Of a DNA stretch of 64,000 bases, positions 34,588 to 64,000 are shown piece by piece. The stretch lies in assembly GCA_016748015.1 (NCBI GenBank), contig JAAOMT010000512.1, positions 1,212,719 through 1,276,718 of the forward strand, given 5' to 3'. The notes under the pieces are model-generated. The model did no database searches and was not told the DNA's origin. It saw nothing but the letters and a program-made list of their open reading frames with translations. The stretch is from Geosiphon pyriformis uo1 (Eukaryota > Fungi > Glomeromycota). How positions within the stretch are numbered: the stretch's first letter is position 1; each line of letters begins with the position of its first letter. The position numbers were made by a program, and so were the translations under genes.

Positions 34588-35324
34588 TGTTATAGGTTGG
34601 AGTAACAAGCTAATAGATAGCAAGGGAGAACAGGATTGTAAGGTGATGGAAATAATTAAAGAGATTTCAACTTCAAAAAGCAAATTGAATAAGTATAAAT
34701 TCAATGTGTGAGATCAGTCTCATAAAATATCTTAGTCACTATTCTTTTCAAAAGGTAACTGGAGAATCTGAAGGTAGAGAAATAGTCCATACTGTCAATA
34801 AATAATCATACTTGATATAATTCTATGCCTCACATTAGTGCTTTTAGAATTTAATATCAAGTATCAGATGTGCTCTTCAGTCACGTTTTATTCAATAATT
34901 TTCAAATGCTATACTTATACATTTCAGAAAAAGGATAAGAATTAACCAACAAGTAATTTTTTATCCCAAGATGTTCAGATACTTGAAGGTAGAGAAAGAA
35001 AAATTAGTGATAAGAGAATGATTGAGATAAAAGTTGTTATTTTATTTATTCTTGATTATTTTGAACATGTTTTTCTACAGTTAAGAAATTCATCACTTAT
35101 ATAGCTGTCAAAAAATGGTCAATGATCAGATCAATGACTAAGTTAATAATTAGGTCAATGGTTAAGTTAATAATCAGGTTATTGATCAGGTCAATGATTA
35201 GGTCAATGGTCAGGTTATTGATCAGATCAATGATTACTATTTAAAAATAGTGTGGCTAATTTATATGACATCAATGGCTAATACATGTGATAATTAATAA
35301 GAAGTATAAGTTTCAACTGTAACA
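34588..35324 (-). repeat. 3' LTR of E0
   Basis: Termini TGTTATAG...CTGTAACA; abuts a PPT (GGAAAGGA on minus strand); LINE ORF1 homology stops at 34587. Confidence 0.7.
35117..35236. repeat. 12-bp tandem repeat (GGTCAATGATCA-like, ~10 units) in the E0 LTR
   Basis: Visible 12-bp periodicity; unit variants are mostly transitions. Confidence 0.85.
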
Positions 35325-37609
35325 TTATCCTTTCCAAAGAGATTAAGCTCTGGTAAAATCAAGCTATTTATAAGGTAATCTATTTAAAGGATTTTATCTA
35401 ACTCAAAGCTAACTAGTTTGTTGAAGTTTTTTGTGGATAAAGTATATAATACTTAAGGCGAAATGAGTTTTGTATTCAAGAGACCAAATATTTGTATTAG
35501 AGTTTTGGCTCTTCTAACAATAGTTAAAACTCTTGAAACATCTAATCATATAATGCCCAAAATTTCTGCCTGTATCTCTGAAGTTGTTTTTTTCATGAGT
35601 TTCATATTCTCTATAATTTCATCAAGGCAACCATAGAGTTCTAATTGCCTTTTATATGACAAATTTTTTCTATAAGTAAAATTTCTTGAAGTGTTTTTCC
35701 AATTGTATTAAAAGGTGGGAATATAGCTGTTATTATACTTTCCAACAGATATTTATCTATTTTACTACCAATTTTTTCTCTTCTAGTAGTAGTTTTCTTT
35801 GGTTTAATAACAGTATGTATTCCATTATTATCAGTTATAGTGGTTTGTTTTTCAATGGTCAAAGTAGCATTTGGATAGTTTTTGATCCAATACTCATGGA
35901 GAATATAGAAAGCATTTTGAATGTTTTAATCCAGAAAATAATTGTTTATGTTGATTGAAGATACCTCTGTTTTGGGAATAGTGCATTTATTTATACTTGA
36001 TTTTTGTTGATTATTTGAGTTGGTATTACTATAACAAGCAGCCAATTAGGTCATTTATGATATTGCTTGAGTTATGTACCATGAACAAGATGATCATTGA
36101 AGATTGTTCTGAATTGATCTTGAAAAATATAAGAACTATTGTTCAAAACTTTGTTGACTATAAAAAGTCTTTTCTACTGGCTAGAAAATTTATTACCATA
36201 GACATTGTCTCTGTCTGAACAATATTTCAATACCAAGTTACCAACACTTAAAAAAAGTGTTTTATAGGTTTTTTTTTTCTTAAGCTTTTCTTGGAACTGT
36301 TTTATCTTTTCAAAAGCAATTATTCGTGCTTCTACTAAGGAGTTAAAAATGGTACCAAGTCTTTTTTGCAAAATGTTTTTGTAATTTCCTATTGTGATCT
36401 TTTCAAAGGATATTGTTTCAATATCAGTTTCTATTGGTAGTGTTGCCATGTGTTTGTAAAGCAGATAAAAAGATTTATAACTTGTTATGTCATGATTCAC
36501 AGTTTTATAAGCAAACAAAGCTAAAGACAGTACTTTGTTCCATAAGTTTGTTTCTTCACTGGTTTTGGCTAGGGTTTCACATAGTGTTCTATTAAAACGT
36601 TCTACTAGGCTATTTGTTTAGAAATGATAAGGAAAAAAAAGTTTATGATGTATTCCCATTTTTCTACAAAGTTCTTCAACCAGTATACTGAGAAAAGCTC
36701 TTTCTCTATTAGATAAAAGTTCTTTGAAGCAGCCATGATGGCAAATGATATCTTTATAAATGAAATTGGTTATTAAGACTGCTGTTTAGTCTAAAGTGGC
36801 TCTTGTTTTTACCCATTTTGTAAGATAGTTGGTAGCTGTAATAATGTATCTGTTGCCATTAGGAGTTATTGTTAAAGGTCCAACAACATCTATACCAATT
36901 CTGTCAAATGGTTGACCAACAAAGATTGGATAGATATCTTCTTTGCGATTGAGTTTGCCTCTTCTTTGGTAGATGTCACAGGTTTTGATGTATTCAGCAA
37001 TGTCTTTTCCCAAAGTAGGCCAATAATAACAAGCTAAAGATTTCTGAATTGTCTTTGTTTTTCCAAAGTGTCCAGCTAATAGGTCAGTATGCATGTTGTA
37101 TATTACAATTTCTCTTTCTTCAAATCTGATGACTCTTTGGAAGTGGTCAGAATCTTTTCTGTTTCTTTTGTATAATTGGTTTTGGCAGATCAAATAGAAA
37201 TTTGATTGTTTTCACAAATGTTCTCTTTGCTGTTGAGTGTATTCTGGTGGTTATTGTTTTTTACCCAAAAATTTTATTAAGACAGAGTAGTTGTCCAAGT
37301 TTATTATTGTGTTTGTTTGTGAAGGAGTTACTAATAATTAAGTTGGTTTGGTTTAAGAGGTTGTACTATTACTGGATAGTAAGTCTAGAGAGAATGTCAG
37401 CATTTTGATGATTTGCTTCTTTATGGTGTTGAATATTATAGTCGAATTCATCCAAGTGAAGTATCCAGTGAGTTATTCATTTGTGTTCCAGCTTTTTTTT
37501 ATTGTGCAGCCAAACCAAAGCTTAATGATCTGTTACTACTAAGAATTTTGCACCAAAAAAATATTGATCCCAGTAGCTAGTAGCCCAAACTACTGCTAGA
37601 CATTCTTGT

Positions 37610-38568
37610 TGTTACCAGAGGTTTTTGGTCTCTTTTCTTAAATGTTGTAACTGTCTGTTGGTTGCAAATTCACGTTTTCTAGAAGTAGTTGAATTTCCAA
37701 TAACTGAATTTATCTTCAAATTATCTCCTATAATTTGAACTGCTGGGCTTATAAGTGGAATGGCCAATTCCGTGCCAGTTACTTTGCATAGTTACATTGT
37801 AGTAAATACCAATTCTTTTTCAGGAATTGCTTGTCTGGAAGCTCACTAAAAATATGTAGTTACTTTTCTGTGAAAGTCAACTCTTCTATAGAAATCTCAT
37901 CTGTAGGCTATCTTAATGATTACAGTAAGAAAATAAAAGAAAATAAAAGAAATGTAAAAGAAATTGAATTTTGTCAAGGGAACCAGGCCTGGAGTCACTA
38001 ACAGTTTACTGAAATTGGTAACTAATCAATTTCAAAATGTTAGTTGGAGTTTTGGGAATTTTTCAAGTGCAATAATTAAAAGATTTGGTTTTTCGAATTA
38101 TTTGATATTTATTTCTTTTTGTGTGTATAGAAATGGTTCTAGTGATAAATCTAAAGTAAGATACATTTTCTTGAAGAGAAAAGCTCTTCTTTTATACAAC
38201 TTGTTGTAGTACTAGTTTATGAACTTGCACTTTTTCTCTTTGCTCGAATTTTGGCAAACTAAAGATACATTTTGATGAACTACAAGTTATTTTTACTGAA
38301 CTATTGATTAATTTGGGTGAACTATTCATAATTTCGGCGAATTTCTGTAAATTTTGGCGAATTTTAGAATGTTACAAAGTTCAGAGTATTGTGTAATTTG
38401 ATCATCCTACTTCTGTTATATTAATTAGATTATTTTAATTAAATTGTAATATGTGATAATTGATTAAATAATAAATGATAATTTGAAATGATATTAATAT
38501 ACTAATTAATTATAGAAATTATAAGGGTAATTTTATGCTAATTAATAGCTAAAATTCTACTGGTAACA
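37610..38568 (-). repeat. 3' LTR of E1
   Basis: Direct repeat of 57364-58354; 9-bp terminal inverted repeat. Confidence 0.95.
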
Positions 38569-39256
38569 TAATCTCCTCCTCAAGACTGAGTTTCATCAAA
38601 GTTCAAGCATTATCTGTAATATTAAAATAGTGATCCAAAATAATTGAAGTAATCTGGTCTGAAAATTGTTAAAATTTCAGTTCTGTGAGTTTGCCAATGT
38701 ATTGGACTTTCATTGGTTGCAGTATTGAATTTTGTAGAATATTTTCACAAGTATTAAACAAATTATAGAGTCTAAAAGCTGCTCTAAGTTTGTAGTGAGT
38801 GTTTGTTGATCCAGCTGCTGTTTTGAATTCATTGTAGATTTGTTTTTGTATAGCTTCAGGAGTGAGATTTGTTGCTTCAAGTTCCAGTTTTCGTTCATAA
38901 AGTGTCTTTCCAATGTAAAAGTATTTATAGATAGGAGTGTGTTCATTGTTCTGTTCATTGAAAAGTAGTAGAAGTTTATGTTACATTATAGTATTTGGTG
39001 GAATGTCAATAGGGGCAATTAAAAGATTTTCTTCCAGTGCTTGCTTCAAAAGTCTTGGTAACCTATTTTTAGAGTGACTTCTTGTTTTTCTTCTATAGGA
39101 GTGATAGTTCTGTAAATAATTTGCTATTGGGGCTGTGGTTTTTTTCTGAATGTAATTAATTTGACTTCCATTAATTATTATGGATAAGTCAGGAAGTATT
39201 TTCAAGACTAACATTAACTTTTGGGATATTTGTTGAATATTTCGGGGAATAATCAT
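38549..39256 (-). pseudogene. E1 accessory ORF3 (~235 aa, unknown function)
   Basis: One frame from ATG 39256 (MIIPRNIQQISQKL..) through the PPT into the LTR; interrupted only by transition-type stops; colinear with E2 46657-47376. Confidence 0.75.
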
Positions 39257-39446
39257 GATAAAATTGACTAATTATGAAAAGAAAGAATAAAGAAAATTAT
39301 TTTTGAATATGGGATTTTTATTTGTTTTTGGGTTTTGGGTGTTTTTGTAATTATTTACTATTTTTGTCTTTGTGTTTTTATTAGAGAATTAAAATTTAAG
39401 TGTTTAAGTTTGGTTGTTGTTCTATTATAATTATTGGTTCTAAATT

Positions 39447-42240
39447 TCAGGGAATATCTTCAGGATTAATTAAAGAGGAATGTGTACCAATTTGTGGAAT
39501 TAATGTTTTAGGATTGTTTCTGGAATAATAATGTTTCAATCTGTCTCCATGTACAACTTTTGCTAGTATTTTGTCATCAAGTCTTAACTTGTATAATCTA
39601 TTGCCTAGAATTTTGTATATATAAAATGGTCCATCCCATTTGTTTTCAAATTTCCCACTCCATTGTTTTTCAGCCTTAGTTCTGTGTAAGAGAACTTTAT
39701 TTCTAACTTTAAATTCATTGGTAATAGGTGGTAATTTGTTGTCATGTTTTTCTTTTTGTTGAACTTGGGAATGTTCAATATAAGTTGCTGCTATTCTTTT
39801 TTTTTCTTCCAGTGTACTAAGAAAAGTGTAGGGCCTTCTTTGGAGTGTTTCTTGAAAGTTTTCTTCATTGATTGGTTGCACTGGGTATGTTTCCACTATG
39901 AAATTAATTGGTAATGTTGCTGTCTTTCCATAAATAAGATCAAATAGTGTGTGTTTCATAGTATTTTGTTTTAGCATTCTGTATACTAGTAACACTGATA
40001 GAATAAAAATATCCCATTCCTGCTCAAAGTCTGTTGAGACTTTGGCTAGAGATTCACACAATGTTCTGTTGAAATGTTCTATAAGTCTATTTGTTTGAGA
40101 GTAATAAGATGATAATAGAGGTCTTTTGACATTGAACCATTCACAAATTTCTTGTATCAAGTTGTTCACAAAATGTGTTTTTTGATCAGATAAAAGTTTA
40201 ATTGGGCATCCATGTCTACAAATAATGTCTTCATAGATGAAATTTGCTACTGATTTTGCATCTGCTCTTTGGATGGCTCTAGCTTCAAGCCATTTGGTAA
40301 GATAATCTAGTGAAACTGCAATATAGCAATTTCCTTGAATTGTGATAGGTAATGGTCCGACTAAATTAATTCCAACTCTGTCAAAAGATTGTCCAACTTT
40401 GATTGGATTTAAAGGTTCTGTGGGGTGAGTTCTTTCTCTTCTTTGATAACTATCACAAGATTTTACATATTGTCGAATGTTTTTTTGCATGTGAGGCCAA
40501 AAATAATGTTCAAGAGTTCTTTGAATTGTTTCATCTCTTTCCAAGTGTGCTGAAGATAGATCTGTGTGCATATTGTATAAAATTGTTTCTTTTTCATTCT
40601 CTTGTACTAATCTGAGTAGTTGGTTTGGGTTTCTGTGATTTTTATAATAGATTTTGTTCTAGTGTATGAAATATTGTTTTGATTGGTGTTGTAAAAAATG
40701 TTTTTTACTTGGAAACCAGTTTTCTGACATGGTAAGAGTCCAAATAATTTTTAAAATTGCTGTAATTTCTGAAATCCATTTTTGTTTGGTTATTTTGTTG
40801 GTAGGTTGGTAAGTTATAGTGAAATTTGTTGTTGGTATTAATCTTGTCTCATTCTTGAGAGGCTATCAACATTGGTATGTAGTTTTTTTGGTTTGTGGTA
40901 TACAATATATCTGTAGTCTGCTAGGAAGTCATTCCATCAAGACTGTTTGGCACTTTGTTCAGTTTTTTTTTTATTGAGCCATTTGAGGCCAATATTGTTC
41001 GTTATTATGTTAAATTCTTTTCCATTCTTCAAATATTGTTGAAAATGTTTAAGAGTTCAGATGACTGCGGCAGCTTCTAATTCAGTTGAGCCATATTTTA
41101 GTTCTGTTGGTTTGAGTGTTCTACTAGCATAGGCAATAATTTATTCTTGCCTATTTTCATCTAATTGTAATAAAATAGCACTGAATGCTATGTGTAAAGC
41201 ATCAGTGGCTAGTTGAAATTGTTTATTGAAGTTTGGGTATACAAGAACTGGAGCTGTTGTCAATCTTGTTTTGAGAGTTTCAAAAGCTTTCTGTTGTTTT
41301 TCTGTCCATTTGTATGACACATTTTTGTTAATAAGATAATTGAGTGGTTTGGCAATTTCTGAGAATTCTTTGATGAATTTCTGATAATAGGAGGCTAATC
41401 TTACAAATCCTTATAGCTCTGTAGTATTTTTGGGAGTTTGGAAGTTTTTGACAGCACTGATTGTTCTAGGATTTGGTTTGACTCCATCTTTGCTAACAAT
41501 GTGTCCGAGAAAGATTAAGCTTGTTTTTCCAAAGTGACATTTTTCAATGTTTAACTTCAATCCTGCTTTCCATAATTATTGAAAAACTTCTCACAGGTAG
41601 ATAAGATGAGTCTCAAAGCTTGGTAAATATACATTAGTGTTATCAAGATAGACAACTACTGATTGCCACAAGAGTCCTTCATATACAACATCTATGAGTC
41701 ACTGGAATGTTGCTGGTGCATTGCAGAATCCAAAAGGCATAACATTGAATTCATAGTTTCCTCTCTGGATGGTAAATGCTGTTTTGGGTTGGTTTTTTGG
41801 GTCCATTTCGACTTGCCAGTATCCACTTTCCAAGTCTAAAGTTGAGAAAAACTTGGCTTTTCCTAGAGCATCTAGCATGTCATCAATTCTTAGAAGAGGG
41901 TAGGCATCTCCAATTGTCACACTGTTCAATTGGTGATAGTCAACACAAAATCTGATTTTTCCATTTTTTTTTTAACAAAGACTACTGGTGAGGCCCAAAG
42001 ACTTCTTGATGGTTGAATCAATCCGTTATTGAGCATTCTCTGAACTTCTTTTCTGATAAATTGGTGGCTGGCAAGTGGCACTTTGTAAGCTTGCTGATGT
42101 TTTGGTAGAGCATCTTCTGTATGGATTTGATGTTAAACCATATCCATTTTTCCCAGTTCATTGTTGTCTTTTGCAAATATATCTGCAAATTCAGCTATCA
42201 ATTGTTTTAATTGTCTTTGTTGTTGAGGTTCTAAGAGACC
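39447..42240 (-). pseudogene. E1 RT-RNase H-integrase
   Basis: DAYPLLRIDDMLD, FSTLDLESGYWQ, VMPFGFCNAPATFQ, integrase HHCC/DDE core, KWDGPF. Confidence 0.95.
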
Positions 42241-42681
42241 CATGTTGATTCAAGAGAGTTTTTCTTCCAAAAAGTGGTAGTTTTCAGTAGTGAAAATGAT
42301 ATTTGGATTTGGGAGTAGAGTGTGTCTTACAATTTCGATGAAATTAAAGACAATTTGAGAGTTTTTATCTTGAAAAATATTGCTGTGTATGATTCCAATC
42401 TCCAGTTTGTTTAATAAAACAATAGGGTAATTATTGGGGTTGTAGAATATAACTCGAAATTTTTTCATTTTTTTGGGAATATAAACGTTTGGAATTGAGA
42501 TTTCATGCTTTAAATAGATTTGTTTATTAGATTTAAAGATTTGTTGTGTAGTGGTGGGTTTTGAGCAAGTGTAAATTTCGTGATGTTCTCCAAAAAGTAA
42601 AATGGTAATTGGCTGGGGAAGTTGAAGAATCTGGTAAGATTCATTTTGTGTATTAAGAGCTATGTTTACTGGAACTGTAAA

Positions 42682-43115
42682 TCATCTAGTTGAACCAAAA
42701 CCTTGAGTTCCTCTTTCACTTTTTTCCAATTGTTCTCTGTTGTTAACTGATTGTAGATCCGAAATATTGATTAAGGATAAGTAAATTGCATGAGCAATTT
42801 TTTCAGCATGTTCAATCTTGAATGGTTTGTCTGTTTTATTCTGCAGCATGATGGTAATGTCTCCAGTGTATCCTGTATCTATAACTCCTTCTCTAATATT
42901 GATTCCTTTGCTTGCCAATAATGATCTGGATGCAATTTGAACCATTGCTCCAGGTGGAATTTCAAGAGTGATTTTGAGATTGATTTTTGTCAAGGACTTT
43001 GGTTGGAGAACCAAAGTATTTTTTCCTGGATATCTTAGGTCATATCCAGCATTAATTTCGTGTGCTTTTTCTGGTCTGATTCCTTGGCCATGGTTGTCAA
43101 AGTATTTAAGTTGTA
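42682..43115 (-). pseudogene. E1 trimeric-type dUTPase domain within pol
   Basis: All five motifs: AGYDL, ASRS, GVIDTGYTG, EKIAH(Q), ERGTQGFGST. Confidence 0.93.
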
Positions 43116-44027
43116 GAGGTGGTTGCTTTTCAAAAAAATAGATGGGAGTGGTTGGTAGTTCTTTTACCAGTTTAGATACTCCAAATTTGATTTCATTTTC
43201 ATCATTTTCATTTGGCAGAGGAATGCTAAGAGCATAACATTCTAAACACCATTGGTCATCACAAGACATAACACATTCTTTACACAATTGAATGTTCATT
43301 TGCACTAATCATTGAATTTGAGCTTTTTTGGTCGGATATGTGTGGCTTGCAATTTGGTGGTAGGTTTTTACTTCATCTTTATAATCAAATCCAGCTAATT
43401 CCATGGTATACTTAATGTATTCAGCTTCTTTTATTTGGTAGACATCTTCTTGGATGGCTCCATTGATCAATGCCATTGCTAGGTCAAAAATCATTTTAGC
43501 ATCATAAGGATAGTGGTAAAGTTTATTGAGAGCACTCTTGTATACTGCATCAAATAGTGTTTCTTTTCTGACTTTTTCCGAAATTGATAGAGCATATTGA
43601 CAGATCTGATCACATACTCTTTCTCTCATTGTTACATCAATCCAATTGCATTCTTCTGGTAGCCTTTCTCCACAAGTAAGACAAGGAGTTTTGTCTCATT
43701 TTCTACTTTTCTTTGGGGATCCAAATCGTTCTCTATGGCATGCCTTGCAGAAGTAACAAGTGTGAGTTTCGTATTCCTCTTCTGGGGAGATACAGGCTCC
43801 CATAGATGAAAGCTTTTTTTTGCAATCTTTGCATTTTAGTGGAATGTATGGTGGTTCTTTTTGTGGTTCTGGTATAGAATATCTAACTTTCTTCCATCCC
43901 CTTGATTCTTCAAAAATCTCTTGTTCTGTTTTCTCAGCCCAATTGGATGGTGATCCAAAAGCCATATAGGTTTTAGTGAGTGGCATTTCTTTTTTTTTTC
44001 AAATTCAAATACTAGAGCTTTTTCTGA

Positions 44028-45706
44028 TTATTTGTTAAAAATACTACAGGTTGCAGATACTATAGTATATTGTCCTTGGTATGAGATTTTAAGTTCTTGA
44101 GTTTCCCAGTTCAGGTTTGCATTGGCCTTAAGAAGCCAATCATTTCTGACTAGAGCTTGGTATTGGGGTGCATTCATAACAAGAACTTTAACTGGAATGG
44201 TGATTCTATCAATTGTAAAGGGGAAATCATCAATTTCTCCTACTGGAGTCTTCTTTATACTATCAGCTGTGACAATAACTGTTTGAGCTAGTCTGTCTAC
44301 ATTTCGTTTGAGTTGTTGCATTAGCTGATAAGTGATGATACTTCCAGCCAATCTATTATCTAAGATTAAGCAAATGGGTTTTTCTTCCACTATAGCTTCT
44401 GTATACATAGCAGTAATTGCTTTCTGTTCATTGACTGCTGCATTACTAAGCAGAAATGGTGATTTATTTGCTTCAAATTCAAATAGAAATATATCTGACA
44501 GATTAGCATTTTGGGCAATTTGAGCTGGTGAAATGATGTGGTTGGAAGAGTTTGATCTTGGTGCTGCAACTTTATCTTCAGAAAGTGTAGGTTGTTGAAA
44601 ATCCGATTCCTTTGGTATTGTAAGATAATTGGGTTGAGTATGATAGTGATTGGATCTTTGTTAACCAGAATTTCGGGAAACCAACTGGTTATTTGGATTA
44701 ATTCTGTTGTTGTTATTCTGAAATTGATTTTGGGGTGTGAATTGGTTATGTTGAACCAATCTTCTTGCTGGTACTTGATATTGTTGAATGGGTGGTGTCT
44801 GATATTGCTGAATTGGTAAAGGTTGCTAATATTGTTGTTAAATTGGTTGTGAAGCTGGTTAATAATAGCTGTTTTAAATTTGTGGTCTCAGTGAATAATA
44901 AGTTGGTGGTAGGAGTTGGTAATAAAATTGTTATGGTAAAGAGTAACATTGATTACTCCTGTTTGTTGGTCTCTTTGTAGTTTCCTGCAATCTTGTTTCC
45001 AGTGTCCTGGAATTCCACAATAGTGACAATTTTGAGGTTGGTTGTTGGATGGTAATCCAAAATTGTTTTGGTTGTATCATTGTGGGAGTTGATATCTTTG
45101 TGGTTGTTATTGCTGTTGTTGTTGGTTTGTGAAGTAGCTTTCAACCTTTTTTGTGAGTTGGTCTATCTTCTTTTCAGCTGCTGAGCTGATTTCTCCAATT
45201 GCAAGATTTACAAGCTTGGTGTGATTTGCTTCTTCTATTGCTATTTTATAGCTCTTTGCATGTCTAATAGCAGTTGCTAAGTCTACTAGAACATGTGGAC
45301 AGACTTTTTTAATCAGTTTGTCTTTTAATCCTGCTATAAACTAATCCAGAATTTGAGCATCAGAATAGTAGTCATTGGTTTCCAATTGTCGGATTCATCT
45401 GAGAAGTTTGTTAAATCTTCCAAGATAGGTCATAACAGTTTCAGATGTTTCTTGTTTGATATTGTGAAAGCAGTTTCTAAGAGTAATAGAGATATTGTTG
45501 TCAGTGAATTGTTGTAGAAAAGCATCTTTGAATGCTTGCCAGTTTTCAAATGGTTCTTCTAAATTTTCAAACCATTCTTCTGCTGTTCCTTGGAGAAAGT
45601 AGAGAATTGCTTTAAGCATTCTTGCTGCAATCCAACCATTTGCATCTCCTGCTTTTTGAACTTTGTTGAGTTATTCTTAAGAACTGATATTATTATCTTC
45701 ACCCGT
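44028..45706 (-). pseudogene. E1 gag C-terminal part (capsid, zinc knuckle) and aspartic protease
   Basis: YFLQGTAEEWF, CxxCx4Hx4C, LILDNRLAGS (eroded DSG). Confidence 0.9.
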
Positions 45707-46688
45707 TGTTACCAGAGGTTTTTGGTCTCTTTTCTTGAATGTTGTTAATGTTGATTTGCTGTGAATTCACGTTTTCTGGATGTAATTGAACCTCCAGTAA
45801 CTGAATTTATCTTCAAATTATCTCCTATAATTTGAACTGCTGGGCTTATAAGTGGAATGGTCAATTCTGTGCCAGTTACTTGTGTAGTTACATTGTAGTA
45901 AACATCAACTCTTTTCCAAGAAATGCTCATCTAGAAGCTTATTAAAATATGTAGTTACTTTACTGTGAAAGTCAACTTTTCTACAGGAATTCTCATCTGT
46001 AGACTACCCAAATGATTTATAATAAGAAAAGAAAGAGAATAAAAGAAATGTAAAAGAAAAGTAAAACTGATGATTTATGGAAGTCGTTTTGGATCCAGGC
46101 CTGAAAGTGCTTTAACAGTTTACTGAAATTGGTAGCTAGTCAATTTCAAACTGTTGATAGGAATTGGTTAATTTTAAGGGAAATAATTAAGAATTTGGCT
46201 TTTCGAATTTATTTAATATTTATTTTGTTTTGTATATAAAGAATGATTCTAATTGTTAAATCTGAAGTAAGATACATTTTCTCGAAGAGAGAAGCTCTTC
46301 TTTTATACAACTTGTCATAACACTATTCTATGAACTTGAACTTTGCTATTTTCTTCAATTTCGCTGAACTAGAGATATATTTTAGCAAATTACAAGTTAT
46401 TTTTGTGAACTATTAGATATTTTGGTGAACTATCAATTATTTCGGCAAATTTCTACAAATTTTGGCGAACTTTTTAAATGTTACATAGTTCGGAGTATTG
46501 CATGATTGATCATCACAATTAGGTTACATTTATGTTATATACAAATTGGGTTATTAATTAAATGATAATTTCAGACATTTTGCTAATATAATAAGTGATA
46601 ATTTGAAACAATAATATATGCTAATTAATGATAGGAATTATAAAGATAATTTTATTCTAAATAATATCTCTAATTTTGTCTGGTAACA
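45707..46688 (-). repeat. 3' LTR of E2
   Basis: Direct repeat of 55578-56559. Confidence 0.95.
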
Positions 46689-47376
46689 TAACCTCCTCCT
46701 CAAGACTGAGCTCTGTCGAAGTCCAAGTACCATCTGTAATTTCCAGATAGTAATTCAAAATTATTGAAGAAATTTGGTCTGAAAATTGTTGAAATTTCAG
46801 TTCTGTGAGCTTTCCAATGTATTAAATCTTCAAAGGTTGTAAAATTGGGTTTTGTAGAACATGTTCACAGGTATGGAATAGGTTATAAAGTCTAAGAGCA
46901 GCTCTTAGTTTATAGCGACTGTTTGTAGGTCCAGCTGTTGTTTTGAATTTATTGTAAAGTTGTTTCTGAATAGCTTCTTTTGTGAGGTTTGTTGCTGTAA
47001 GCTCCTATTTTCGTTTGTGAAGTGTTTTTCCAATGTAAAAATATCTATATATTGGAGTATAGTCATGGTTTTCTTTATTAAGACACAGTTGAAGTTTTTG
47101 TTGAATAGTAGCATTTGGTGGAATACTAATAGGAGTGAACATTAAATTTTCTTTTAAAGCAAGCTTCAAAAGTTCTGGTAGATGAATTCCAGAATAACTT
47201 CTTGTGTTCTTTTTGTAGAAGTAATAATTTCATGAATTTGGGGCTAAATTGGCAACTATTTTTGTTTGAGTATAATTAATATGTTTTTCTGTAATAGTAA
47301 TAGATAATTCGGGTATTGTCTTTAAAGCTGACATTAGTTTCTGGGATAATTGTTGAATGTTTTGAGGAATAATCAT
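46657..47376 (-). pseudogene. E2 accessory ORF3 (239 codons, unknown function)
   Basis: No frameshift; three internal stops, all explicable as C>T; MIIPQNIQQLSQKL..YFYIGKTL..YKLRAALRLYNLF..YIGKLTELKFQQFSDQI..LSLEEEVMLPDKIRDII*. Confidence 0.78.
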
Positions 47377-50294
47377 TATAAAAATTTTGAGTAAGAGAAA
47401 AAAATAGATTGAAATTATTTTTGGTATGTGGGTTTTTATGTTATTTTTGTCTTTCAGTGTGTTTTGTTTTGTTTTGTTTTTGTGAAATTATTTTTAATTT
47501 ATAAGGGAATAACTATAGTAAATTTAAATTAAGTATTCAAGTTGGGAGGTTGTTCAATAACAACTATTGGTTCTAAATTTTGGGGAATATTTTCGGGCTT
47601 AATTAAAGGAGAATGTGTACCAATTTGTGAAATTAATGGTTCAGGATTGTTTCTGAAATGATAGTGTTTTAGATAATCCCCATGTGTAGGATTTTGTCAT
47701 CAAGTCTTAACTTGTATGATCTGTTGCTTAGAACTTCATGGATAAAGAATGGTATGTCCCATTTATTTTCAAATTTTCTACTCCATTGTTTTTCAGCTTT
47801 AGTTTTGTGTAAAAAAACTTTGTTTCCAACTTTAAATTCATTAGTGACTGGTGGCAATTTGTTGTTATGCTGTTTTTTTTTTTTTTTTGTTGAGCTTGGG
47901 AGTGTTTGATATGGGTAGCTGCTATTCATCGTTTTCCTTCTAATGTGCTGAAAAGAGTGTAGGCTCTTCATTGGAGCATTTCCTGAAAGTTTTCTTTGTT
48001 AATTGGTTGTACTGGATATGATTCCACAGTGAAATTAATTGGTAACATTGCTGTCCTTTCATAGGTTAAATCAAATGGTGTGTGTTTTGTGGTATCTTGT
48101 TTTAGTGTTCTATATGCTAGTAACACTGATGGAATAAAGATATCCTATTCCTGTTCAAAATTGGTTGAGACTTTGGCTAATGATTCACACAGTGTTTTAT
48201 TGAAACATTCTACAAGTCTATTTGTTTGTGGATGGTAGAGTGAAGACAAAGGTCTTTTGACATTGAATCGTTCACAAATTTCTTGGATTAGATTGTTCAC
48301 AAAATGTGTTTCTTGGTCGGACAAAAGTTCAATTGGGCATCCATGTCTACAAATAATGTCTTCATAGATAAAATTTGCTACTGATTTTGCATCTGCTCAT
48401 TGAATAGCTCTGGCTTTGAGCCATTTGGTAAGATAATCTATTGCTACTGCTATGTATCAGTTTTCTTGCATGGTAATAGGTAGTGGTCTGACTAAATCGA
48501 TACCAACTTGGTCAAAAGGTTGTCCAACTTTGATTGGATTTAAAGGTTCAGTAAGGCATGTTCCTTCTTTTTTTTGACAACTATCACAAAATTCAACATA
48601 TTGATGTATGTCTCTTCTCATTCGGGCCCAAAAATAGTATTCTAGTGTTTTTTGGGTGGTGCTGTCTTTTCTGAAGTGTGCTAATAAAAAATCTGAGTGC
48701 ATGTTGTATAATATAGTCTCTTTTTTGTGTTCTTGTATTAATCTGAGTGGTTTGTCTGAGTTTTTGAAATTTCAATAATAAATGATGTTGTTGTGTAGAA
48801 AATATTGTTTGGCTTGTTGTTGTAATTGATGTTTTTCCTCTAGAGACCAATTTGTTAAGATTGTTAAAGTCTCTAAATATTGTTTGATATTGTTGTAGTT
48901 TTCAGAGTTTATTGTTTGGTGGCTGTTTCTGTTGTTTGGATTGAATGATGGTTTATTTTTCTAATCTTGTCTTATTCTTGAAAGACAGTCAACATTGGTG
49001 TGGAGTTTTCCTGGTTTGTGGTGTACTATATATTAATAATTTGCTAGAAATCTTATCCATTGGGTTTGTTTTGCATTGAGTTGGGTGTTTTTGTTTTGTA
49101 ACCATTTGAGTCTAATATTATCAGTGATAATATTGAATTCCTTTGGCCGGAGATAAAGGTTGAAATGATGTAAGACCCATATTACTGCTGCTGTTTCTAG
49201 TTCAGTTGTAGGGTAATTCTTTTTAGTGAGTTTCAATGTTCTGCTAGCATAAGCAATTACTTGCTCATTTTCATTGTCATCCAATTGTGATAGAATAGTG
49301 CCAAAGGCAGTATAAAAAGCATCTGTTGCTAATCAGAATCAGTTGCTGAAATCTGGGTAGATGAAAATTGGAGCTGTTGTTAGTTTTTTTTTGAGGATTT
49401 CAAATGCATTTTGGTGTTCAACAGTCCATTTGTATTTGACATTTTTGGTGGTAAGCTGGTTGAGAAGTTTTGCAATTTCTGAGAATTCTTTAATAAACTT
49501 TTGATAGTAGGAGGCTAATCTTATGAATCCTCTTAGTTCTATAGTGTTTTGAGGAGTTTTGAAGTTTTTGACAGTGCTGATTTTTCCAGGGTCTGGTTTG
49601 ATTCCATCTTTACTAATGATATGACCAAGGAAGGCCAAGCTTGTTTTTCCAAAGTAGCATTTTTCAATGTTTAGTTTCAATCCTGCTTTCTGTAATTGTT
49701 GAAAAACTTTTCGCAGGTGTTTTAAGTGTAATTCAAAAGATAGCAAATAAACATCAGTATCATTGAGATAGACAACTATAGACTTCCAAAGGAAGCCTTT
49801 AAAAACAACATCCATGAGTCTTTGGAATGTTGCTAGTGTATTGTATAATCTGAAAGGCATTACATTGAATTCGTAATTTCCTCCTTGGGTTGTGAAGGCT
49901 GTTTTGGAACGATCTTTGGGATCCATGACAACTTGCCAGTATCCGCTTTCTAAATCTAGTGTTGAAAAGTATTTGGATTTTCCAAGGGCATCTAACATGT
50001 CATTGATTTGGGGAAGAGAGTAGGCATCTCCAATGGTAACACTGTTGAGTTGTTGATAATCAACACAAAATCATATTTTTCTATTTTTCTTTTTAACTAG
50101 AACCACAGATGAAGCCCATAGACTCATTGATGGTTGAATAAGCCCATTGTTAAGCATCCATTGTACTTCTTCTTGAATAAATTGGTGACTTTTTGGAACA
50201 ACTTGGTAGGCTTGTTGTTACCTTGGTTTGGCATCTTCTGTATAGATTTGGTGTTGAACCAAATTGGTTCTTTCTAAGTCATTGTTGTTTTTGG

Positions 50295-51271
50295 TGTTAC
50301 TGGAGGTTTTTGGTCTCTTTTCTTGAATGTTGTTAATGTTGATTTGCTGTGAATTTATGTTCCCAGGAAGTAGTTAGACCTCCAGTAACTGAATTTATCT
50401 TCAAATTATCTCCTATAATTTGAACTGCTGGGCTTATAAGTGAAATAGCCAATTCCATGCCAGTTGCTTTATGTAGTTACATTGTAGTAAACATTAACTC
50501 TTTCCCAGGAATTGCTCATCTGGAAGCTCACAAAAAAATGTGTAGTTACTTTGCTGTGAAAGTCAACTCTTCTACAGAAAGCTTGTCTGTAGGCTACCCT
50601 AATAATTGTAATAAGACAAGGAAAGAAAAATAAAAGAAAATGTAAAGGAAATTGAATTTTGTCAAGAGAAACGTTTTCTATTCAGGCCTGGAGTTATTAA
50701 CAGTTCACTGAAATTGGTAGCTAATCAATTTCAAAACGTTAGTTGGGTTTTGAGAATTTTTCAAGTGCAATAATTAAAGAATTTGGTTTTTTGAATTATT
50801 TGATATTTATTTCTTTTTGTGTGTGTAAGAATAGTTCTAAGTAATAAATCTAAAGTAAGATAAAATACATTTTCTCAAAGAAAGAAGCTCTTCTTTTATA
50901 CAACTTGTTGTAACACTATTCTATGAACTTGAACTTTGCTATTTTTTTCAATTTCGCTGAACTAGAGATATATTTCAGCAAACTACAAGTTATTTCTGTG
51001 AATTATTAAATATTTTGGTGAACTATCAATTATTTTGGCAAATTTCTACAAATTTCAGCAAATTCTTAAATGTTACATAGTTTGGGGTATTGCATGATTG
51101 ATTATCACAATTAGGTTACATTTATGTTACATACAAATTGGGTTATTAATTAAATGATAATTTCGGATATTTTACTAAATGTAATAAGTGATAATTTGAA
51201 ATGCTAATTAATGATAAGAATTATAAGAGTAATTTCATGTTAAGCAATATCTCTAATTTTGTCTGGTAATA
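50295..51271 (-). repeat. Solo LTR of the E1/E2 family inside E2 pol
   Basis: TGTTACTGG...CTGGTAATA; TSD TTGG on both sides; excision restores DIFAKNNNDL; no PBS/PPT. Confidence 0.93.
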
Positions 51272-51782: not shown

Positions 51783-52215
51783 ATCCAGTTGAACCAAAAT
51801 CTTGGGTTTCTCTATCGCTTTTTCCTAATTGTTCTCTTTGATTGACTAGTTGCAAACCCGAAATGTTGATTAGGGGTAGGTAAATAGCTTAGGCAATTTT
51901 TTCAGCATGTTTGATCTTGAAAGGTTTATCGGTTTCATTTTGGAGTATTACTGTTATGTCACCAATATATCCAGCATCAATTATTCCTCCTCTGACATTG
52001 ATTCCTTTGCTTGCCAGAGAGGACCAGGAGGCAATTTGAACTATTGCTCCTGTTAGGATTTCGAGGGCAATTTTGAGGTTGATTTTTGTGAGAGATTTGG
52101 GTTTGAAAATAAGAGTATCCTTGTCTGGATATCTTAGGTCATATCCAGCATCAATTTCATGTGCTTTTTTGGGTTTTATTCCTTGTTCATTGTTGTTGAA
52201 GTATTTGAGTTGTAA
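51783..52215 (-). pseudogene. E2 dUTPase domain within pol
   Basis: DAGYDL, GGIIDAGYIG, EKIA*(Q), DRETQDFGSTG. Confidence 0.92.
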
Positions 52216-55200
52216 GGCAGGCTGATTTTCAATGAGATAGATGGATGTTGCTTCAATTTTTTCTGTTGCTTCAAGTTCTCCAATTTCAATTTCATTTTCA
52301 TCATTTTTACTGGGTAGGGGAATGCTAAGAGCATAGCATTCAGGACACCACTGTTCATCACAAGGCATAATGTATTCTTCATATAGCCTAATGTTCATTT
52401 GCTCCAATCATTGAATTTGAGCTTCTTGGATTGGGTAGGTGTGACTTGCAATTTGGTGGTAGATTTCTACTTTATCTTTATAATTGAATCCAGCTAATTC
52501 CATGGTGTATTCAATGTATTCTGCTTCCTTCATTTGATGAACATCTTTTTTGGTAGCTCTATTAACTAATGTTATTGCTAGATCAAAAATCATCTCAGCA
52601 TTATGGAGGTAGTGATAAAGTTTGTTAAAAGCACTGTTGTATGCCGCATTAAAGAGTGTTCCTTTTTTGACTTTTTTGAAATTGATAAAGCATATTGGCA
52701 GGTCTGATTGCAGACTCCTTCTCTCATTGCTACATCAATCCAATTGCATTCTTTCAGTAGCATATCTCCACAAGTCAAACAAGAGGTGTTGTTCCATTTT
52801 CCGCTTCTTTTTATTAGATGACCCCATCATTCTCTGTGGCAAGCTTTGTAGTAATAACAAGTATAATTTTCATATTCTTCTTCAGGTAAAATGCAGGCTC
52901 CCATTGATGAGAGTTTCTTGTGGCAATCTTTGCATTTGAGTGGAATGTAAGGGCATTGTTTTCGTGGTTCTGGTTTTGAATAGAAAACATTTCATTCAGT
53001 TGTCACTAGTTCTTTTGTTTCAAAAAAATCATTTGTTAAAAAGTACTGTTGTTCAGTTTTATCAGCCCAATTGGAAGTTGATCCAAGTGCCATAAATGTT
53101 TCAATAATGGGCTTTTCTTCTTCCAGTTCGAATTCAAAAGCCAGGGCTTTTTTGGAGCATTTGTTGAATGTACCACAAGTGGCAGGTATCTGGGCATGTT
53201 GTCCTTGGTAAGAGATTGTTAACTCTTATGTCTTCCAATTCAGATTAGCATTGGCTTTTTGAAGCCAATCATTTCTGATGAGAGCTTGGTATTGGGAAGC
53301 ATCCATGACCAGAACTTTGACTAAAATGATAATTCTGTCAATTGTGAATGGGAAGTTGTCAATTTCTCCTACTGAAGTCTTTTTTATGCCATCAGCAGTG
53401 ACAATAATTGTTTGAGCTGGTTGGTCAACGTTTCTCTTTAGCTGCTGTATCAATTAATATGTGATGATGCTTCCAGTGGATCCACTGTCTAGAATCAAGC
53501 AAATTGGCTTTTCTTCTACTTCAGCTTCTGTGTACATTGCAGTGATGGCTTTTTGTTCATTAGCCACTGCATTGCTAAGCAAAAATGGTAATTCATTTGC
53601 TTCAAATTCGAAAGAGAATATATCTGAAAAGTTGGCATTTTCAGCAATTCTGGCTGGTGGGATTGTGGTAGAAATATAGAAAGAGTTTTGTTGTTGTGCT
53701 GCAGCTCTACCTTCTAAGAGTACAGTATGGCAAAAATCCTGTTCTTCTGGTATCATAAGATAACTAGGTTGAGTATGATAGTGGTTGGGTCTTGGTTGGG
53801 GGAACTAATTGGTTGTTCGAATTGATTCTATTGTTGTTTACTTGGTATTGGTTTTGTGATGTGAATTGATTTTGTGGAATTAATCTTTGAGCAGGTACTT
53901 GATAATGTTGTATAGGTGGTTGTTGGTATTGCTGTTGGATTGGCTGTAGGGCAGGCTAATAATAGTTACTTTGGAATTGAAGTCTTAGTGAATAGTAAGC
54001 TGGTGGTGGTAGTTGATAATAAAATTGTTGTGGTAGAGGGTAACGTTGATTACTTCTATTTTGTTGGTCTCATTGTAGCTTTCTGCAATCTTTTTTCCAG
54101 TGGCCAGGGATTCTACAGTAATGGCAATTCTTAGGCTGGTTATTAGAAAGTGGTGTAAAGTTATTTTGATTTCGTTTTTGGGGTGATTGATATCTTTGGG
54201 ATTGCTGTTGTTGTTAGTTGGTAAAATAGTTTTCAACCTTCTTTGTAAGTTGGTCAATTTTCTTCTCAACTGCTGAGCTGGTTTCTTCAATTGCCAAATT
54301 TACAAGTTTTGTGTGATTGGTTTTTTCCATGGCCATTTTGTATCTTTTTGCATGCTGTATGGCAGAGTTTAAATCTTCTGAGACATGTGGGTAAACCTTT
54401 TTAATCAGTTTATCCTTTAGACCAACAATAAATTGATCCAAAATTTGAGTGTTTGAGTAATAATCATTGGTTTTTAGTTGACAAATCCTTCTGAGAAGTT
54501 TGTTAAACTTCCCAAGATAAGTTATAACAGATTCAGAGGATTCTTGTTTGATATTGTGAAACCAATTTCGAAGGGTAATGGAGGTATTATTGTCAGTAAA
54601 CTGTTCAAGAAAGGCTGCTTTGAAAGCATCCCAATCATTGAATAGAGCAGCCAAGTTTTCAAACCATTCTTCTGCTGTTCCTTTGAGAAAGTAGGGGATA
54701 GTTCTTAACATTCTAACAGCATTCCAACCATTTGCATCTCCTGCTTTAGTGACTTGATCAAGCCATTCTTAAGGACTGGTTTTGATGTTCTCTTCTGAAA
54801 AGTCAGAGATTTTTGCAATATAAGTGGAGACCATTTCTTCTTTGTTTTCCAAGTCTTCTGTTTCTTGTTCTGATTCAGTCTTTTCACTTTGATTTTCTGC
54901 TAAGTAGTCAATAAGGTTTGTGCTGGTTGATATTGGTTCTTGTTGTTGAATAGCGCTTTTGAGTGACTGAAAATCTTCTATTCTTGAAAATTGAATAAGA
55001 GGAGAATTTGGTGTTTGTGGTTGAGCAAGTGAAATTGGAAATGGTGTAATAGAAAGTGGTAATTTGACACTGGTTCTTTGTTTAGGTGTTTGCAAGTGTT
55101 TGGCAGTTGTCTTTGTCAGTATTGGAGTGTTTGGAGTGGTTTTTGAGTGTTGTTTCACTTTTTGTTTGCCTTTGTTGCTTGTTTCTGTTTCTGATTCAGA

Positions 55201-55577: not shown

Positions 55578-56559
55578 TGTTACCAGAGGTTTTTGGTCTC
55601 TTTTCTTGAATGTTGTTAATGTTGATTTGCTGTGAATTCATGTTTTCTGGATGTGGTTGAATCTCCAGTAACTAAATTTATCTTCAAATTATCTCCTATA
55701 ATTTGAACTGCTGGGCTTATAAGTGGAATGGCCAATTCCGTGCCAGTTACTTGTGTAGTTATGTTGTAGTAAACATCAACTCTTTTCCAGGAAATGCTCA
55801 TCTGGAAGCTTATTAAAATGTGTAGTTACTTTACTGTGAAAGTCAACTCTTCTACAGGAATTCTCATCTGTAAGCTACCCAAATAATTTATAATAAAAAA
55901 AGAAAGAGAATAAAAGAGATGTAAAAGAAAAATAAAACTGATGATTTATGAAAGTCGTTTCAGATCCAGACCTGGAAGTTCTTTAACAGTTTACTGAAAT
56001 TGGTAGCTAGTTAATTTCAAACTGTTGATAGGAATTGGTTAATTTCAAGGGAAATAATTAAGAATTTGGCTTTTCAAATTTATTTGATATTTATTTTGTT
56101 TTGTGTATAAAGGATAATTCTAATTGTTAAATCTGAAGTAAGATATATTTTCTCGAAGAGAGAAGCTTTTCTTTTATACAACTTGTCATAACACTATTCT
56201 ATAAACTTGAACTTTGCTATTTTCTTCAATTTCGCTGAACTAAAAATACATTTCGGCAAACTACAAGTTATTTCTGTAAACTATTAGATATTTTGGTGAA
56301 CTATCAATTATTTCGGCAAATTTCTACAAATTTTGGCAAACTTTTTGAATGTTACATAGTTCGGGGTATTGCATGATTGATCATCACAATTAGGTTACAT
56401 TTATGTTATGTACAAATTGGGTTATTAATTAAATGATAATTTCAGACATTTTGCTAATGTAATAAGTAATAATTTAAAACAATAATATATGTTAATTAAT
56501 GATAGAAATTATAAAGATAATTTCATGCTAAATAATATCTCTAATTTTATCTGGTAACA
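55578..56559 (-). repeat. 5' LTR of E2
   Basis: Followed on the minus strand by PBS TTTGGTGCTCTCCC. Confidence 0.95.
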
Positions 56560-63300: not shown

Positions 63301-64000
63301 TATCAGCCCCAACAAATTCAAACACCATCACAGAACTTACCTTAAAATAGAACCCAAAGGCCAAGATTGACTCAACAAAGCTGGAAATTGTCGATGGTAG
63401 TCCACCAACTGATTCCCAGTTCTTCCACACAACCAGTAAGATCTCAACAACAGAATTTGGGCACCAAGTATGCCCAACACCCAAATTTTCAGAACTATTT
63501 AAGTCTACTGATTACTCCAGAAAACACTCAACCCAATAACCCGGAAACCAACCAACACCCAACACTTACTAGCAACATTCTACCAGCTACCATCACTAAG
63601 AACAAATCACTGGATGCCATCTTCCCATTTGAACTCAAAAAACCATCGAACATGCTGTTATTCAGTGGAGCCACTCTGGAAGAAAAACCCATTACTGCTA
63701 TGTACACTAATGCCAAAGTTAATGGCCACTTCATCAAACTGATCCTAGACAGTAGATCAGCTAGCAGCATTATTACAAAGCAATTCATGGACCAATTAGG
63801 TTACCAAGTTAATTGTACTGCCAGTACCAGAATCATAACTGCCAATGGAACAACCAAAACTCCTATTGGTGAGATTGATGACTTTCTTTTTAAAGTTAAT
63901 GGTATCATCATTCCCATCAAAGTTCTAGTAATGGAAGCAACCCAATATTAGACATTAGTAGGGAATAACTGGTTATCTAAAACCAATGCCATACTGAACT
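60399..64000 (+). mobile_element. Ty3/Gypsy element E4 (5' LTR ~60399-61279, PBS, gag, protease; continues beyond window), inserted antisense in E0
   Basis: LTR end CTGTAACA at 61279 followed by PBS TTTGGTGCTTCC; gag (MAYTPIAKLKKFTG..ANGWND, CHYCGKQEHLQINC); PR LILDSRSAS. Left edge inferred from eroded TATTAC where E0 homology stops. Confidence 0.85.
60470..60660. repeat. ~40-bp tandem repeats with palindromic core ACATTGCTCAGCAATGT in the E4 LTR
   Basis: Units start at 60470, 60510, 60550 and 60591, plus partial copies. Confidence 0.85.

What the first reader, a model, noticed from the sequence alone, without database searches (positions are those of the whole stretch)
38549..47376. Conserved non-env accessory ORF3 after integrase, running through the PPT into the 3' LTR (E1 and E2)
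Seen: E1 (39256-38549) and E2 (47376-46657) each have a separate ATG-initiated 235-239-codon ORF after pol. There are no frameshifts, the stops are all transition-type, and the two copies differ by many synonymous and conservative changes (YKYFYIGKTLYERK/YRYFYIGKTLHKRK; YKLRAAFRLYNLF/YKLRAALRLYNLF; YIGKLTELKF). There is no signal peptide or TM segment, so it is not Env. The PPT encodes LEEE and the stop lies in U3, a layout like lentiviral nef. Inference: an undescribed soluble accessory protein (trans-activator, anti-silencing or targeting factor). With the dUTPase and Cys-rich module, this defines a complex retrovirus-like fungal Ty3/Gypsy lineage.
Basis: partly seen in the sequence, partly recalled or inferred. 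Interest (0 to 1): 0.82.

Follow-up and report, generated by a model that had tools for sequence, protein, structure and literature searches.

The report
Unnamed accessory gene of fungal retrotransposons
Two decayed fungal jumping genes each carry a stop-broken copy of a real, selection-maintained extra gene after integrase, shared with distant relatives in the same position, that codes for a predicted soluble helical protein of no known family which likely binds the element's own DNA or RNA to regulate it.

Summary
Both frames exist, are colinear and run through the polypurine tract (PPT) into U3, but each has three internal stops. The gene is real. dN/dS is 0.25 (integrase 0.21). Of 172 proteins held, 63 are stop-free near-full-length Geosiphon pyriformis relatives in two subfamilies. 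Homologs about 30% identical occur in unnamed metagenome records, and one contig shows the same integrase-spacer-ORF-PPT-LTR layout. It is not Env: no hydrophobic segment. No family, sequence or fold match was found. The model gives a helical core with a basic helix-turn-helix-like hairpin and a conserved basic linker. A weak, recall-chosen likeness to DUF1016_N (HHalign 24%) is a lead only. The nef comparison is superficial: only 6-10 codons enter U3, and the LEEE tail is conserved as PPT DNA rather than as protein. Integrase is itself a separate cistron, so ORF3 is the last gene of a polycistronic element, likely made from an internal promoter (weak TATA signal, p=0.065). Best reading: a nucleic-acid-binding regulator of the element (0.45). 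Extra ORFs after pol are a known class; this protein family appears undescribed in the papers searched.

The parts
38549..39256 (-). ORF3 of element E1 (235 codons, 3 internal stops; last 6 codons and stop in U3)
46657..47376 (-). ORF3 of element E2 (239 codons, 3 internal stops; last 10 codons and stop in U3)
38569..38581 (-). E1 polypurine tract abutting the 3' LTR; read as EEEI in ORF3
46689..46701 (-). E2 polypurine tract abutting the 3' LTR
39257..39446 (-). E1 integrase-ORF3 spacer, 20% GC, 3% G, no upstream ATG, TAATAAA at -127, pyrimidine-rich last 40 nt; candidate internal promoter (inferred)
47377..47582 (-). E2 integrase-ORF3 spacer, TATAAA at -127, no AG within 75 nt of the ATG; candidate internal promoter (inferred)
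39447..40799 (-). E1 integrase, a separate cistron behind the RNase H stop (zinc finger, rve core, SH3-like end; no chromodomain hit)
47583..48915 (-). E2 integrase, separate cistron, decayed
37610..38568 (-). E1 3' LTR (TG...CA), followed by target-site duplication ACAA
57364..58354 (-). E1 5' LTR, followed by a primer-binding-site-like sequence; E1 is inserted in the RNase H of host element X
45707..46688 (-). E2 3' LTR
55578..56559 (-). E2 5' LTR with primer-binding-site-like sequence; E2 is inserted in E1 gag (duplication ATGG/ACGG)
50295..51271 (-). solo LTR of the same family inserted in E2 pol upstream of the RT core (duplication CCAA)
42682..43299 (-). E1 dUTPase between protease/Cys-rich segment and RT
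   Evidence: PF00692, E 7.7e-20
51787..52398 (-). E2 dUTPase
35297..35925 (-). post-integrase pseudo-ORF of host element X (one frameshift, 3 internal stops in the second piece), also running through a PPT into a likely LTR start at 35324; possible distant homolog of ORF3, unproven

Best explanation
ORF3 is a real, selection-maintained accessory gene that sits last in a polycistronic fungal Ty3/Gypsy retrotransposon and codes for a predicted soluble helical protein that likely binds the element's own DNA or RNA and regulates it. Shown: the gene, its position, purifying selection, a three-lineage family, lack of a membrane segment, and that both window copies are broken by stops. Inferred step 1: it is made from its own short mRNA started in the AT-rich spacer and ended in the 3' LTR, not by splicing or by read-through from pol. 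Inferred step 2: a conserved basic linker (residues 41-53) serves nuclear import or nucleic-acid contact, and the basic helix-G-x-T-N-helix hairpin (125-168) is the binding surface. Inferred step 3: it acts in trans on sister copies, raising LTR transcription or protecting or exporting genomic RNA in a host that methylates and hypermutates these elements. The overlap with PPT and U3 is a by-product of the gene having no 3' spacer; the acidic tail is dictated by the PPT.
For: dN/dS 0.25; transversions at 0-fold sites 25/427 vs 10/59 at 4-fold sites, p=0.005; the other two sense frames give 0.67 and 1.13. 63 stop-free near-full-length relatives among 172 proteins held, 2 of 63 with an internal indel. 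Homologs at 29-32% identity; L001 shows the same layout, and its integrase is 58% identical to E1's while ORF3 is 28%, the faster rate expected of an accessory gene. Helices 82-95, 100-119, 126-141, 146-168 with block pLDDT 74-92 over residues 81-160 (second model). Linker net charge +2 to +5 and hairpin +1 to +6 in 9 of 9 homologs; G142, T144, N145 invariant in 8 homologs from 3 lineages. Weak in-register likeness to DUF1016_N (60 columns, HHalign 24%, 0 of 60 block shuffles reach it; 9 of 9 forward sequences 2.2-11.2 bits vs at most 1.7 reversed). TATAAA at -127, -126, -111 in 3 of 4 spacers, A at -3 in 4 of 4, no conserved acceptor AG. CpG o/e 0.12 in E1 vs 0.84 in a host gene stretch; LTR-pair differences 53:3 and 53:2 transitions to transversions.
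Against: No assay, transcript or binding evidence. The DUF1016_N comparison was chosen by recall, is far below Pfam's 32.8-bit cut-off and would not survive a library-wide correction; that domain's DNA binding is itself unproven (PMC1189080 passages call it alpha-helical with no structural match). The TATA coincidence has shuffle p=0.065 (323 of 5000), E1 lacks the exact hexamer, and the L002 site precedes another ORF. Full-length model is low confidence (mean pLDDT 57.8) and the Atlas 'recognition' value 1997 is below that of 91% of known-family proteins. One antisense frame also shows low dN/dS (0.31), but it holds 26 stop codons and shares third positions. Basic charge is modest (whole-protein pI 5.2-9.5).
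Confidence: 0.45

Rival explanations
1. ORF3 serves the stand-alone integrase: it promotes ribosome re-initiation on the polycistronic RNA (as CaMV P6/TAV does) or recruits the separately made integrase to the particle or to target DNA.
For: Integrase lies behind a stop in E1, E2, host X and L001, and all four carry a post-integrase frame. CaMV's last gene P6 has its own TATA promoter in a 106-bp spacer after RT and drives re-initiation (PMC5902531, passages). The integrase has no chromodomain hit, leaving targeting open.
Against: No sequence likeness to P6/TAV appeared in Pfam scans; analogy of layout only. Co-occurrence rests on four elements of one broad group. The three target sites in the window lie inside other elements' coding regions and show no shared motif beyond 4-bp duplications.
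Confidence: 0.2
2. ORF3 is a counter-defence protein that binds a host silencing factor (DNA methylation or small-RNA machinery) rather than nucleic acid.
For: It diverges much faster than integrase (28% vs 58%) yet stays selected; the elements are strongly CpG-depleted and transition-mutated; LTR elements cover 41.2% of the G. pyriformis genome (PMC11952901, passages).
Against: No sign of positive selection was tested or seen; no known suppressor motif; the conserved positions include a basic hairpin more typical of nucleic-acid contact.
Confidence: 0.2
3. ORF3 is a structural or movement protein (Env-like or particle-coating) that lets the element move between nuclei or cells.
For: It occupies the env position. 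The Atlas lists a closterovirus coat cluster at 0.92-0.93.
Against: No TM segment, 1-3 cysteines; the Atlas coat rows share only 144-154 of 256 features, below the level typical of true family members; Foldseek on viral models gave 0 matches at E<=0.001.
Confidence: 0.07
4. ORF3 is a neutral passenger (captured host fragment or open stretch) with no role.
For: Both window copies are broken; no expression data.
Against: dN/dS 0.25, no indels, stop density like RT and integrase of the same copies (3/235 and 3/239 vs 7/345, 3/344, 6/346), and full-length retention at 30% identity in the same position.
Confidence: 0.03

Closest known systems
Sense additional ORFs between pol and the 3' LTR (aORF-3S; review PMC7264820, first third of the text read)
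   Same: Position, orientation, presence across copies of a family, selection.
   Different: Those reviewed are mostly env-like with TM segments and sometimes spliced; ORF3 is soluble, fungal, lies behind a stand-alone integrase and runs into U3.
Fungal Gypsy elements with dUTPase and 'add. ORF' of unknown function (PosPlaTy3-5 and others; PMC2864245, passages); Boty brtn of Botrytis (antisense; PMC7264820)
   Same: Fungal Gypsy, dUTPase between PR and RT, extra ORF of unknown function.
   Different: Those are Dikarya elements from a chromovirus survey; no sequence link to ORF3 was tested or found; Boty's ORF is antisense.
Non-Env ORF3s of bdelloid rotifer LTR elements (PMC5408684, abstract)
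   Same: dUTPase-bearing LTR lineages with non-envelope third ORFs.
   Different: Rotifer ORF3s are GDSL esterases or DEDDy exonucleases; ORF3 here matches no enzyme family.
CERV of C. elegans Cer1 (PMC10309623, abstract)
   Same: Novel accessory protein of an LTR retrotransposon, nuclear, acts on the element's own RNA: a model for how ORF3 may work.
   Different: CERV comes from a spliced mRNA; no homology tested; ORF3's function is untested.
CaMV P6/TAV (PMC5902531, passages)
   Same: Last gene of a polycistronic reverse-transcribing element, behind a short spacer with its own TATA promoter.
   Different: P6 is much larger and plant-viral; no sequence match; ORF3's promoter is only suggested.
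Lentiviral Nef (recalled, no call)
   Same: ORF overlaps the PPT and ends in U3.
   Different: About half of nef lies in U3 and Nef is myristoylated (recalled); ORF3 has 6-10 codons in U3 and no N-terminal Gly.

Membership tests
Ty3/Gypsy LTR retrotransposon (Metaviridae) | Domain order gag-PR-RT-RH-IN | tested here: met
Ty3/Gypsy LTR retrotransposon (Metaviridae) | Paired TG...CA LTRs, PBS, PPT, target-site duplication | tested here: met
Ty3/Gypsy LTR retrotransposon (Metaviridae) | Integrase as part of the Pol polyprotein | tested here: not met
   Stop after RNase H in E1, E2, X and L001; a variant of the usual layout
Ty3/Gypsy LTR retrotransposon (Metaviridae) | Clade placement by RT phylogeny | not tested
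   No RT tree was built
Sense aORF between pol and 3' LTR | Separate sense ORF after integrase, kept across copies and under selection | tested here: met
Env / env-like | Transmembrane anchor | tested here: not met
   max KD19 0.83-1.33 in 8 of 8
Env / env-like | Signal peptide | tested here: inconclusive
   No hydrophobic N-terminal window; no dedicated predictor available
Env / env-like | Spliced subgenomic mRNA | tested here: inconclusive
   No conserved acceptor AG in 4 spacers; no RNA run listed
Nef-like accessory gene | Large part of the coding sequence in U3; N-terminal myristoylation Gly (features recalled) | tested here: not met
   6-10 codons in U3; starts MIIP
DUF1016_N (PF17761) | Profile score at or above the 32.8-bit cut-off | tested here: not met
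   No Pfam hit at E<=10; home profile at most 11.2 bits
Helix-turn-helix DNA-binding domain | HTH fold | tested here: inconclusive
   ParB and KorB DNA-binding domains Z 4.2 and 4.0 (rmsd 2.9 and 2.5, 59 and 54 aligned), tied with unrelated rows
Helix-turn-helix DNA-binding domain | Sequence-specific DNA binding | not testable with these tools
   Needs a binding assay

The most novel reading that the evidence does not exclude
ORF3 is the first recognised member of an ancient, widespread superfamily of trans-acting regulators carried by stand-alone-integrase Gypsy elements of Glomeromycotina: a DUF1016_N-like helical hairpin protein made from an internal promoter that switches on or shields a polycistronic retrotransposon, with some lineages (L002) carrying two such accessory genes. 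That would make these elements 'complex' in the foamy-virus or caulimovirus sense and help explain the LTR burst in Geosiphon.
Probability: 0.25. Interest if true: 0.78.

Novelty: new variant of a known kind. Interest (0 to 1): 0.52.

Why it matters
Few LTR retrotransposon accessory proteins have a known job. This one is abundant, has dozens of stop-free copies in a sequenced genome and is conserved across three lineages, so it can be expressed and tested directly. If it is a trans-activator or silencing shield it would be a new fungal transposon counter-defence, and it bears on how an element with a separately encoded integrase expresses four cistrons. Practically, it identifies well over a hundred 'hypothetical proteins' of G. 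pyriformis as transposon genes.

Tried and rejected
Pfam, PHROGs and NCBIfam: no ORF3 match near a cut-off; best were phrog_20548 (E 0.0012, one protein), phrog_23683 (E 0.024-0.17, three proteins; sought in 3+301 genomes, one weak stop-bearing hit). FtsQ (PDB sequences E 0.0016-0.003; NCBIfam E 0.005-0.009) rejected: far below the 366-bit cut-off, and FtsQ is alpha/beta (recalled) whereas the model core is all-helical. Fold searches: PDB Foldseek 0 at E<=0.001 (37), viral 0, VIA best Z 5.5 and 5.8 among 48,161 chains: no clear fold; this does not show the fold is new, and residues 1-70 and 170-230 were barely tested. No relatives in viral contigs, prokaryote genomes or phages. DUF3102 could not be compared: 0 of 39 genomes had it. 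Single-sequence YhcG comparison: nothing. No RNA holder was listed, which is no evidence on expression; no reads were laid. The integrase-ORF3 complex job gave no verdict. No whole genome was held, so genome-wide dN/dS was not possible. Kinship of element X's post-integrase frame: hmmsearch and HHalign not significant (75, 79: 0.6%); global alignment z 2.0-4.1 against five homologs; left unproven. The tails of two homolog lists were not shown (71 of 191; 87 of 207), and longer or shorter forms were not searched. Literature searches listed no paper describing this ORF; Repbase and subscription papers were not searchable, and no supplements were read.
Full report
Observation. E1 ORF3 is 39256-38549 and E2 ORF3 is 47376-46657, minus strand, ATG-initiated, 64% identical as proteins, with no gap between them. 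Each has three internal stops, so neither copy can make the protein. That is the same decay as in RT and integrase of the same copies (7/345, 3/344, 6/346 stops per codon), and far fewer than chance (mean 17.4; 0 of 2000 shuffles with 3 or fewer).

Anatomy. Five LTRs of about 980 bp with TG...CA ends resolve a nest. A host Gypsy element X is split in RNase H by E1 (LTRs 58354-57364 and 38568-37610, duplication ACAA). E1's gag is split by E2 (LTRs 56559-55578 and 46688-45707, ATGG/ACGG). E2 carries a solo LTR (51271-50295, CCAA). Order in both: gag, protease, Cys-rich segment, dUTPase, RT, RNase H, stop, integrase, spacer, ORF3, PPT, LTR. Integrase is a separate cistron in E1, E2, X and L001. 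LTR pairs differ by 53 transitions to 3 transversions and 53 to 2; CpG o/e is 0.12 in E1 against 0.84 in a host gene stretch. The host is likely Geosiphon pyriformis, from the homolog names.

The gene is real. E1 versus E2 gives dN/dS 0.25 over 229 codons (integrase 0.21, RT 0.14, dUTPase 0.17, protease 0.09, gag 0.09). Counting transversions only, which removes most post-insertion decay, 0-fold sites differ at 25/427 and 4-fold sites at 10/59 (p=0.005). Other frames give 0.67, 1.13, 0.59, 0.31 and 1.15; the 0.31 antisense frame shares third positions and holds 26 stops. The homolog search returned 191 proteins; all 120 listed are G. pyriformis hypothetical proteins. Of 172 proteins held, 28 E1-type and 43 E2-type passed a near-full-length filter. 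I dropped 8 with altered tails or deletions, leaving 27 and 36, of which 2 have an internal indel. These are called genes, so they are stop-free by construction; the share of genomic copies that are intact is unknown.

Distant relatives. A search of 1.84 billion representatives gave 31 hits, two of them distant and full length: P0143 (32%) and P0144 (29%), from unnamed metagenome records; P0166 joined later (3 unnamed and 31 G. pyriformis rows of 34). A metagenome scan confirmed 2 of 378 candidate stretches. L001 has RT-RH, stop, integrase, a 316-nt spacer, an intact 230-codon ORF3, the PPT and the same LTR start; its integrase is 58% identical to E1's, its ORF3 28%. L002 has an integrase end, an extra 128-codon ORF and then an ORF3 homolog. 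The tree separates the Geosiphon group from the metagenome sequences at 100/100, and the E1 subfamily at 98/94. No other named fungus appeared in the listed rows. The Atlas gave unnamed Mucoromycota clusters at 0.94 (175 and 168 of 256 features) for the core, a lead only; for the whole protein its top rows were unnamed archaeal clusters. Host element X also has a post-integrase frame that crosses a PPT into a likely LTR start; motifs fall in the same order and global alignments reach z 2.0-4.1, but profile tests are not significant.

What the protein is. No membrane segment, 1-3 cysteines, no family match. AlphaFold gives a four-helix core at residues 82-168 with good confidence and poor ends (mean pLDDT 57.8 and 66.6). 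Fold searches found nothing clear; ParB and KorB DNA-binding domains appear at Z 4.0-4.2, tied with unrelated rows. Conserved features are a basic linker (+2 to +5 in 9 of 9), an invariant Y..G..L helix, and a basic helix-G-x-T-N-helix hairpin. From recall I compared the core with DUF1016_N, using 61 domains drawn from fetched loci: 60 columns aligned in register, probability 24%, P 8e-4, 0 of 60 block shuffles as high; 9 of 9 forward sequences outscored all reversed ones but reached at most 11.2 bits. Because I picked the family, this is a lead, not an assignment.

The nef analogy. Only 6 and 10 codons lie in U3. Between L001 and the window copies the tail has 85-88% nucleotide identity against 47% in the body, and 7 of 8 identical residues keep the same codon against 27 of 56 (E1) and 26 of 61 (E2). 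The tail is therefore conserved as PPT and LTR-end DNA; it is also unstructured in the model (pLDDT about 32). The layout is old but says little about function.

Expression. The spacers are 18-23% GC and nearly G-free, with pyrimidine-rich ends and A at -3 in 4 of 4. An acceptor AG near the ATG exists only in E1. TATAAA lies at -127 (E2), -126 (L001) and -111 (L002, before its extra ORF); E1 has TAATAAA at -127. Shuffles reach this in 323 of 5000 cases, so an internal promoter is suggested, not shown. No RNA run was listed.

Mechanism. Best reading (0.45): a nuclear nucleic-acid-binding regulator acting in trans on the element's LTR or RNA, made from an internal promoter. Rivals: helper of the stand-alone integrase by re-initiation or recruitment (0.2), protein-binding silencing suppressor (0.2), structural or movement protein (0.07), passenger (0.03). 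All functional steps are inferred.

Comparison with what is known. Sense extra ORFs between pol and the 3' LTR are a known class (PMC7264820, first third read). Fungal Gypsy elements with dUTPase between PR and RT and with extra ORFs of unknown function are reported (PMC2864245 and PMC6431247, passages; bioRxiv 2021.04.13.439636, passages). Non-Env ORF3s occur in rotifer elements (PMC5408684, abstract). CERV (PMC10309623, abstract) and CaMV P6 (PMC5902531, passages) are working analogues without tested homology. LTR elements cover 41.2% of G. pyriformis (PMC11952901, passages). Searches listed no description of this ORF. Earlier notes of this scan report the separate integrase in this genome and small helical post-integrase ORFs in other fungal genomes (8 of 13 shown); they are unchecked, not independent support, and they suggest the phenomenon recurs rather than being unique.

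Verdict. A real, apparently undescribed accessory protein family in a known kind of position: new variant of a known kind, interest 0.52.

Noticed in passing
window 40850-40790, 48970-48915, 37380-37290 (minus); L001 772-800: RNase H ends in a stop and integrase is a separate cistron in E1, E2, host element X and L001.
   Followed up: partly
window 35925-35297 (minus): Host element X has its own post-integrase pseudo-ORF of about 210 codons (one frameshift) that also crosses the PPT into a likely LTR; weak colinear likeness to ORF3.
   Followed up: partly
L002 425-811: A second extra ORF (128 codons, no Pfam hit) lies between integrase and the ORF3 homolog, so that lineage has two accessory genes.
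   Followed up: partly
window 43986-43300 and 53111-52411 (minus): Cys-rich segment between protease and dUTPase (several CxxC pairs) with no Pfam match better than E 0.12.
   Followed up: no
window 35118-35237: Tandem 12-bp repeats inside the likely 3' LTR of element X, a candidate enhancer array.
   Followed up: no
window 60267-64000 (plus): A further, oppositely oriented Gypsy element of another family (gag 62407-62874, protease from 63700) runs off the window end.
   Followed up: no
window 57363-57352 and 55577-55566 (minus): Same primer-binding-site-like 12-mer after both 5' LTRs, offset two bases from the LTR end; the tRNA was not identified.
   Followed up: no
window 1-21717: Ordinary intron-containing fungal genes by eye (phospholipase-like, double-stranded-RNA-binding protein, F-BAR/RhoGAP-like, ribosomal proteins, sorbitol dehydrogenase, IMP dehydrogenase); names recalled, not searched.
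   Followed up: no
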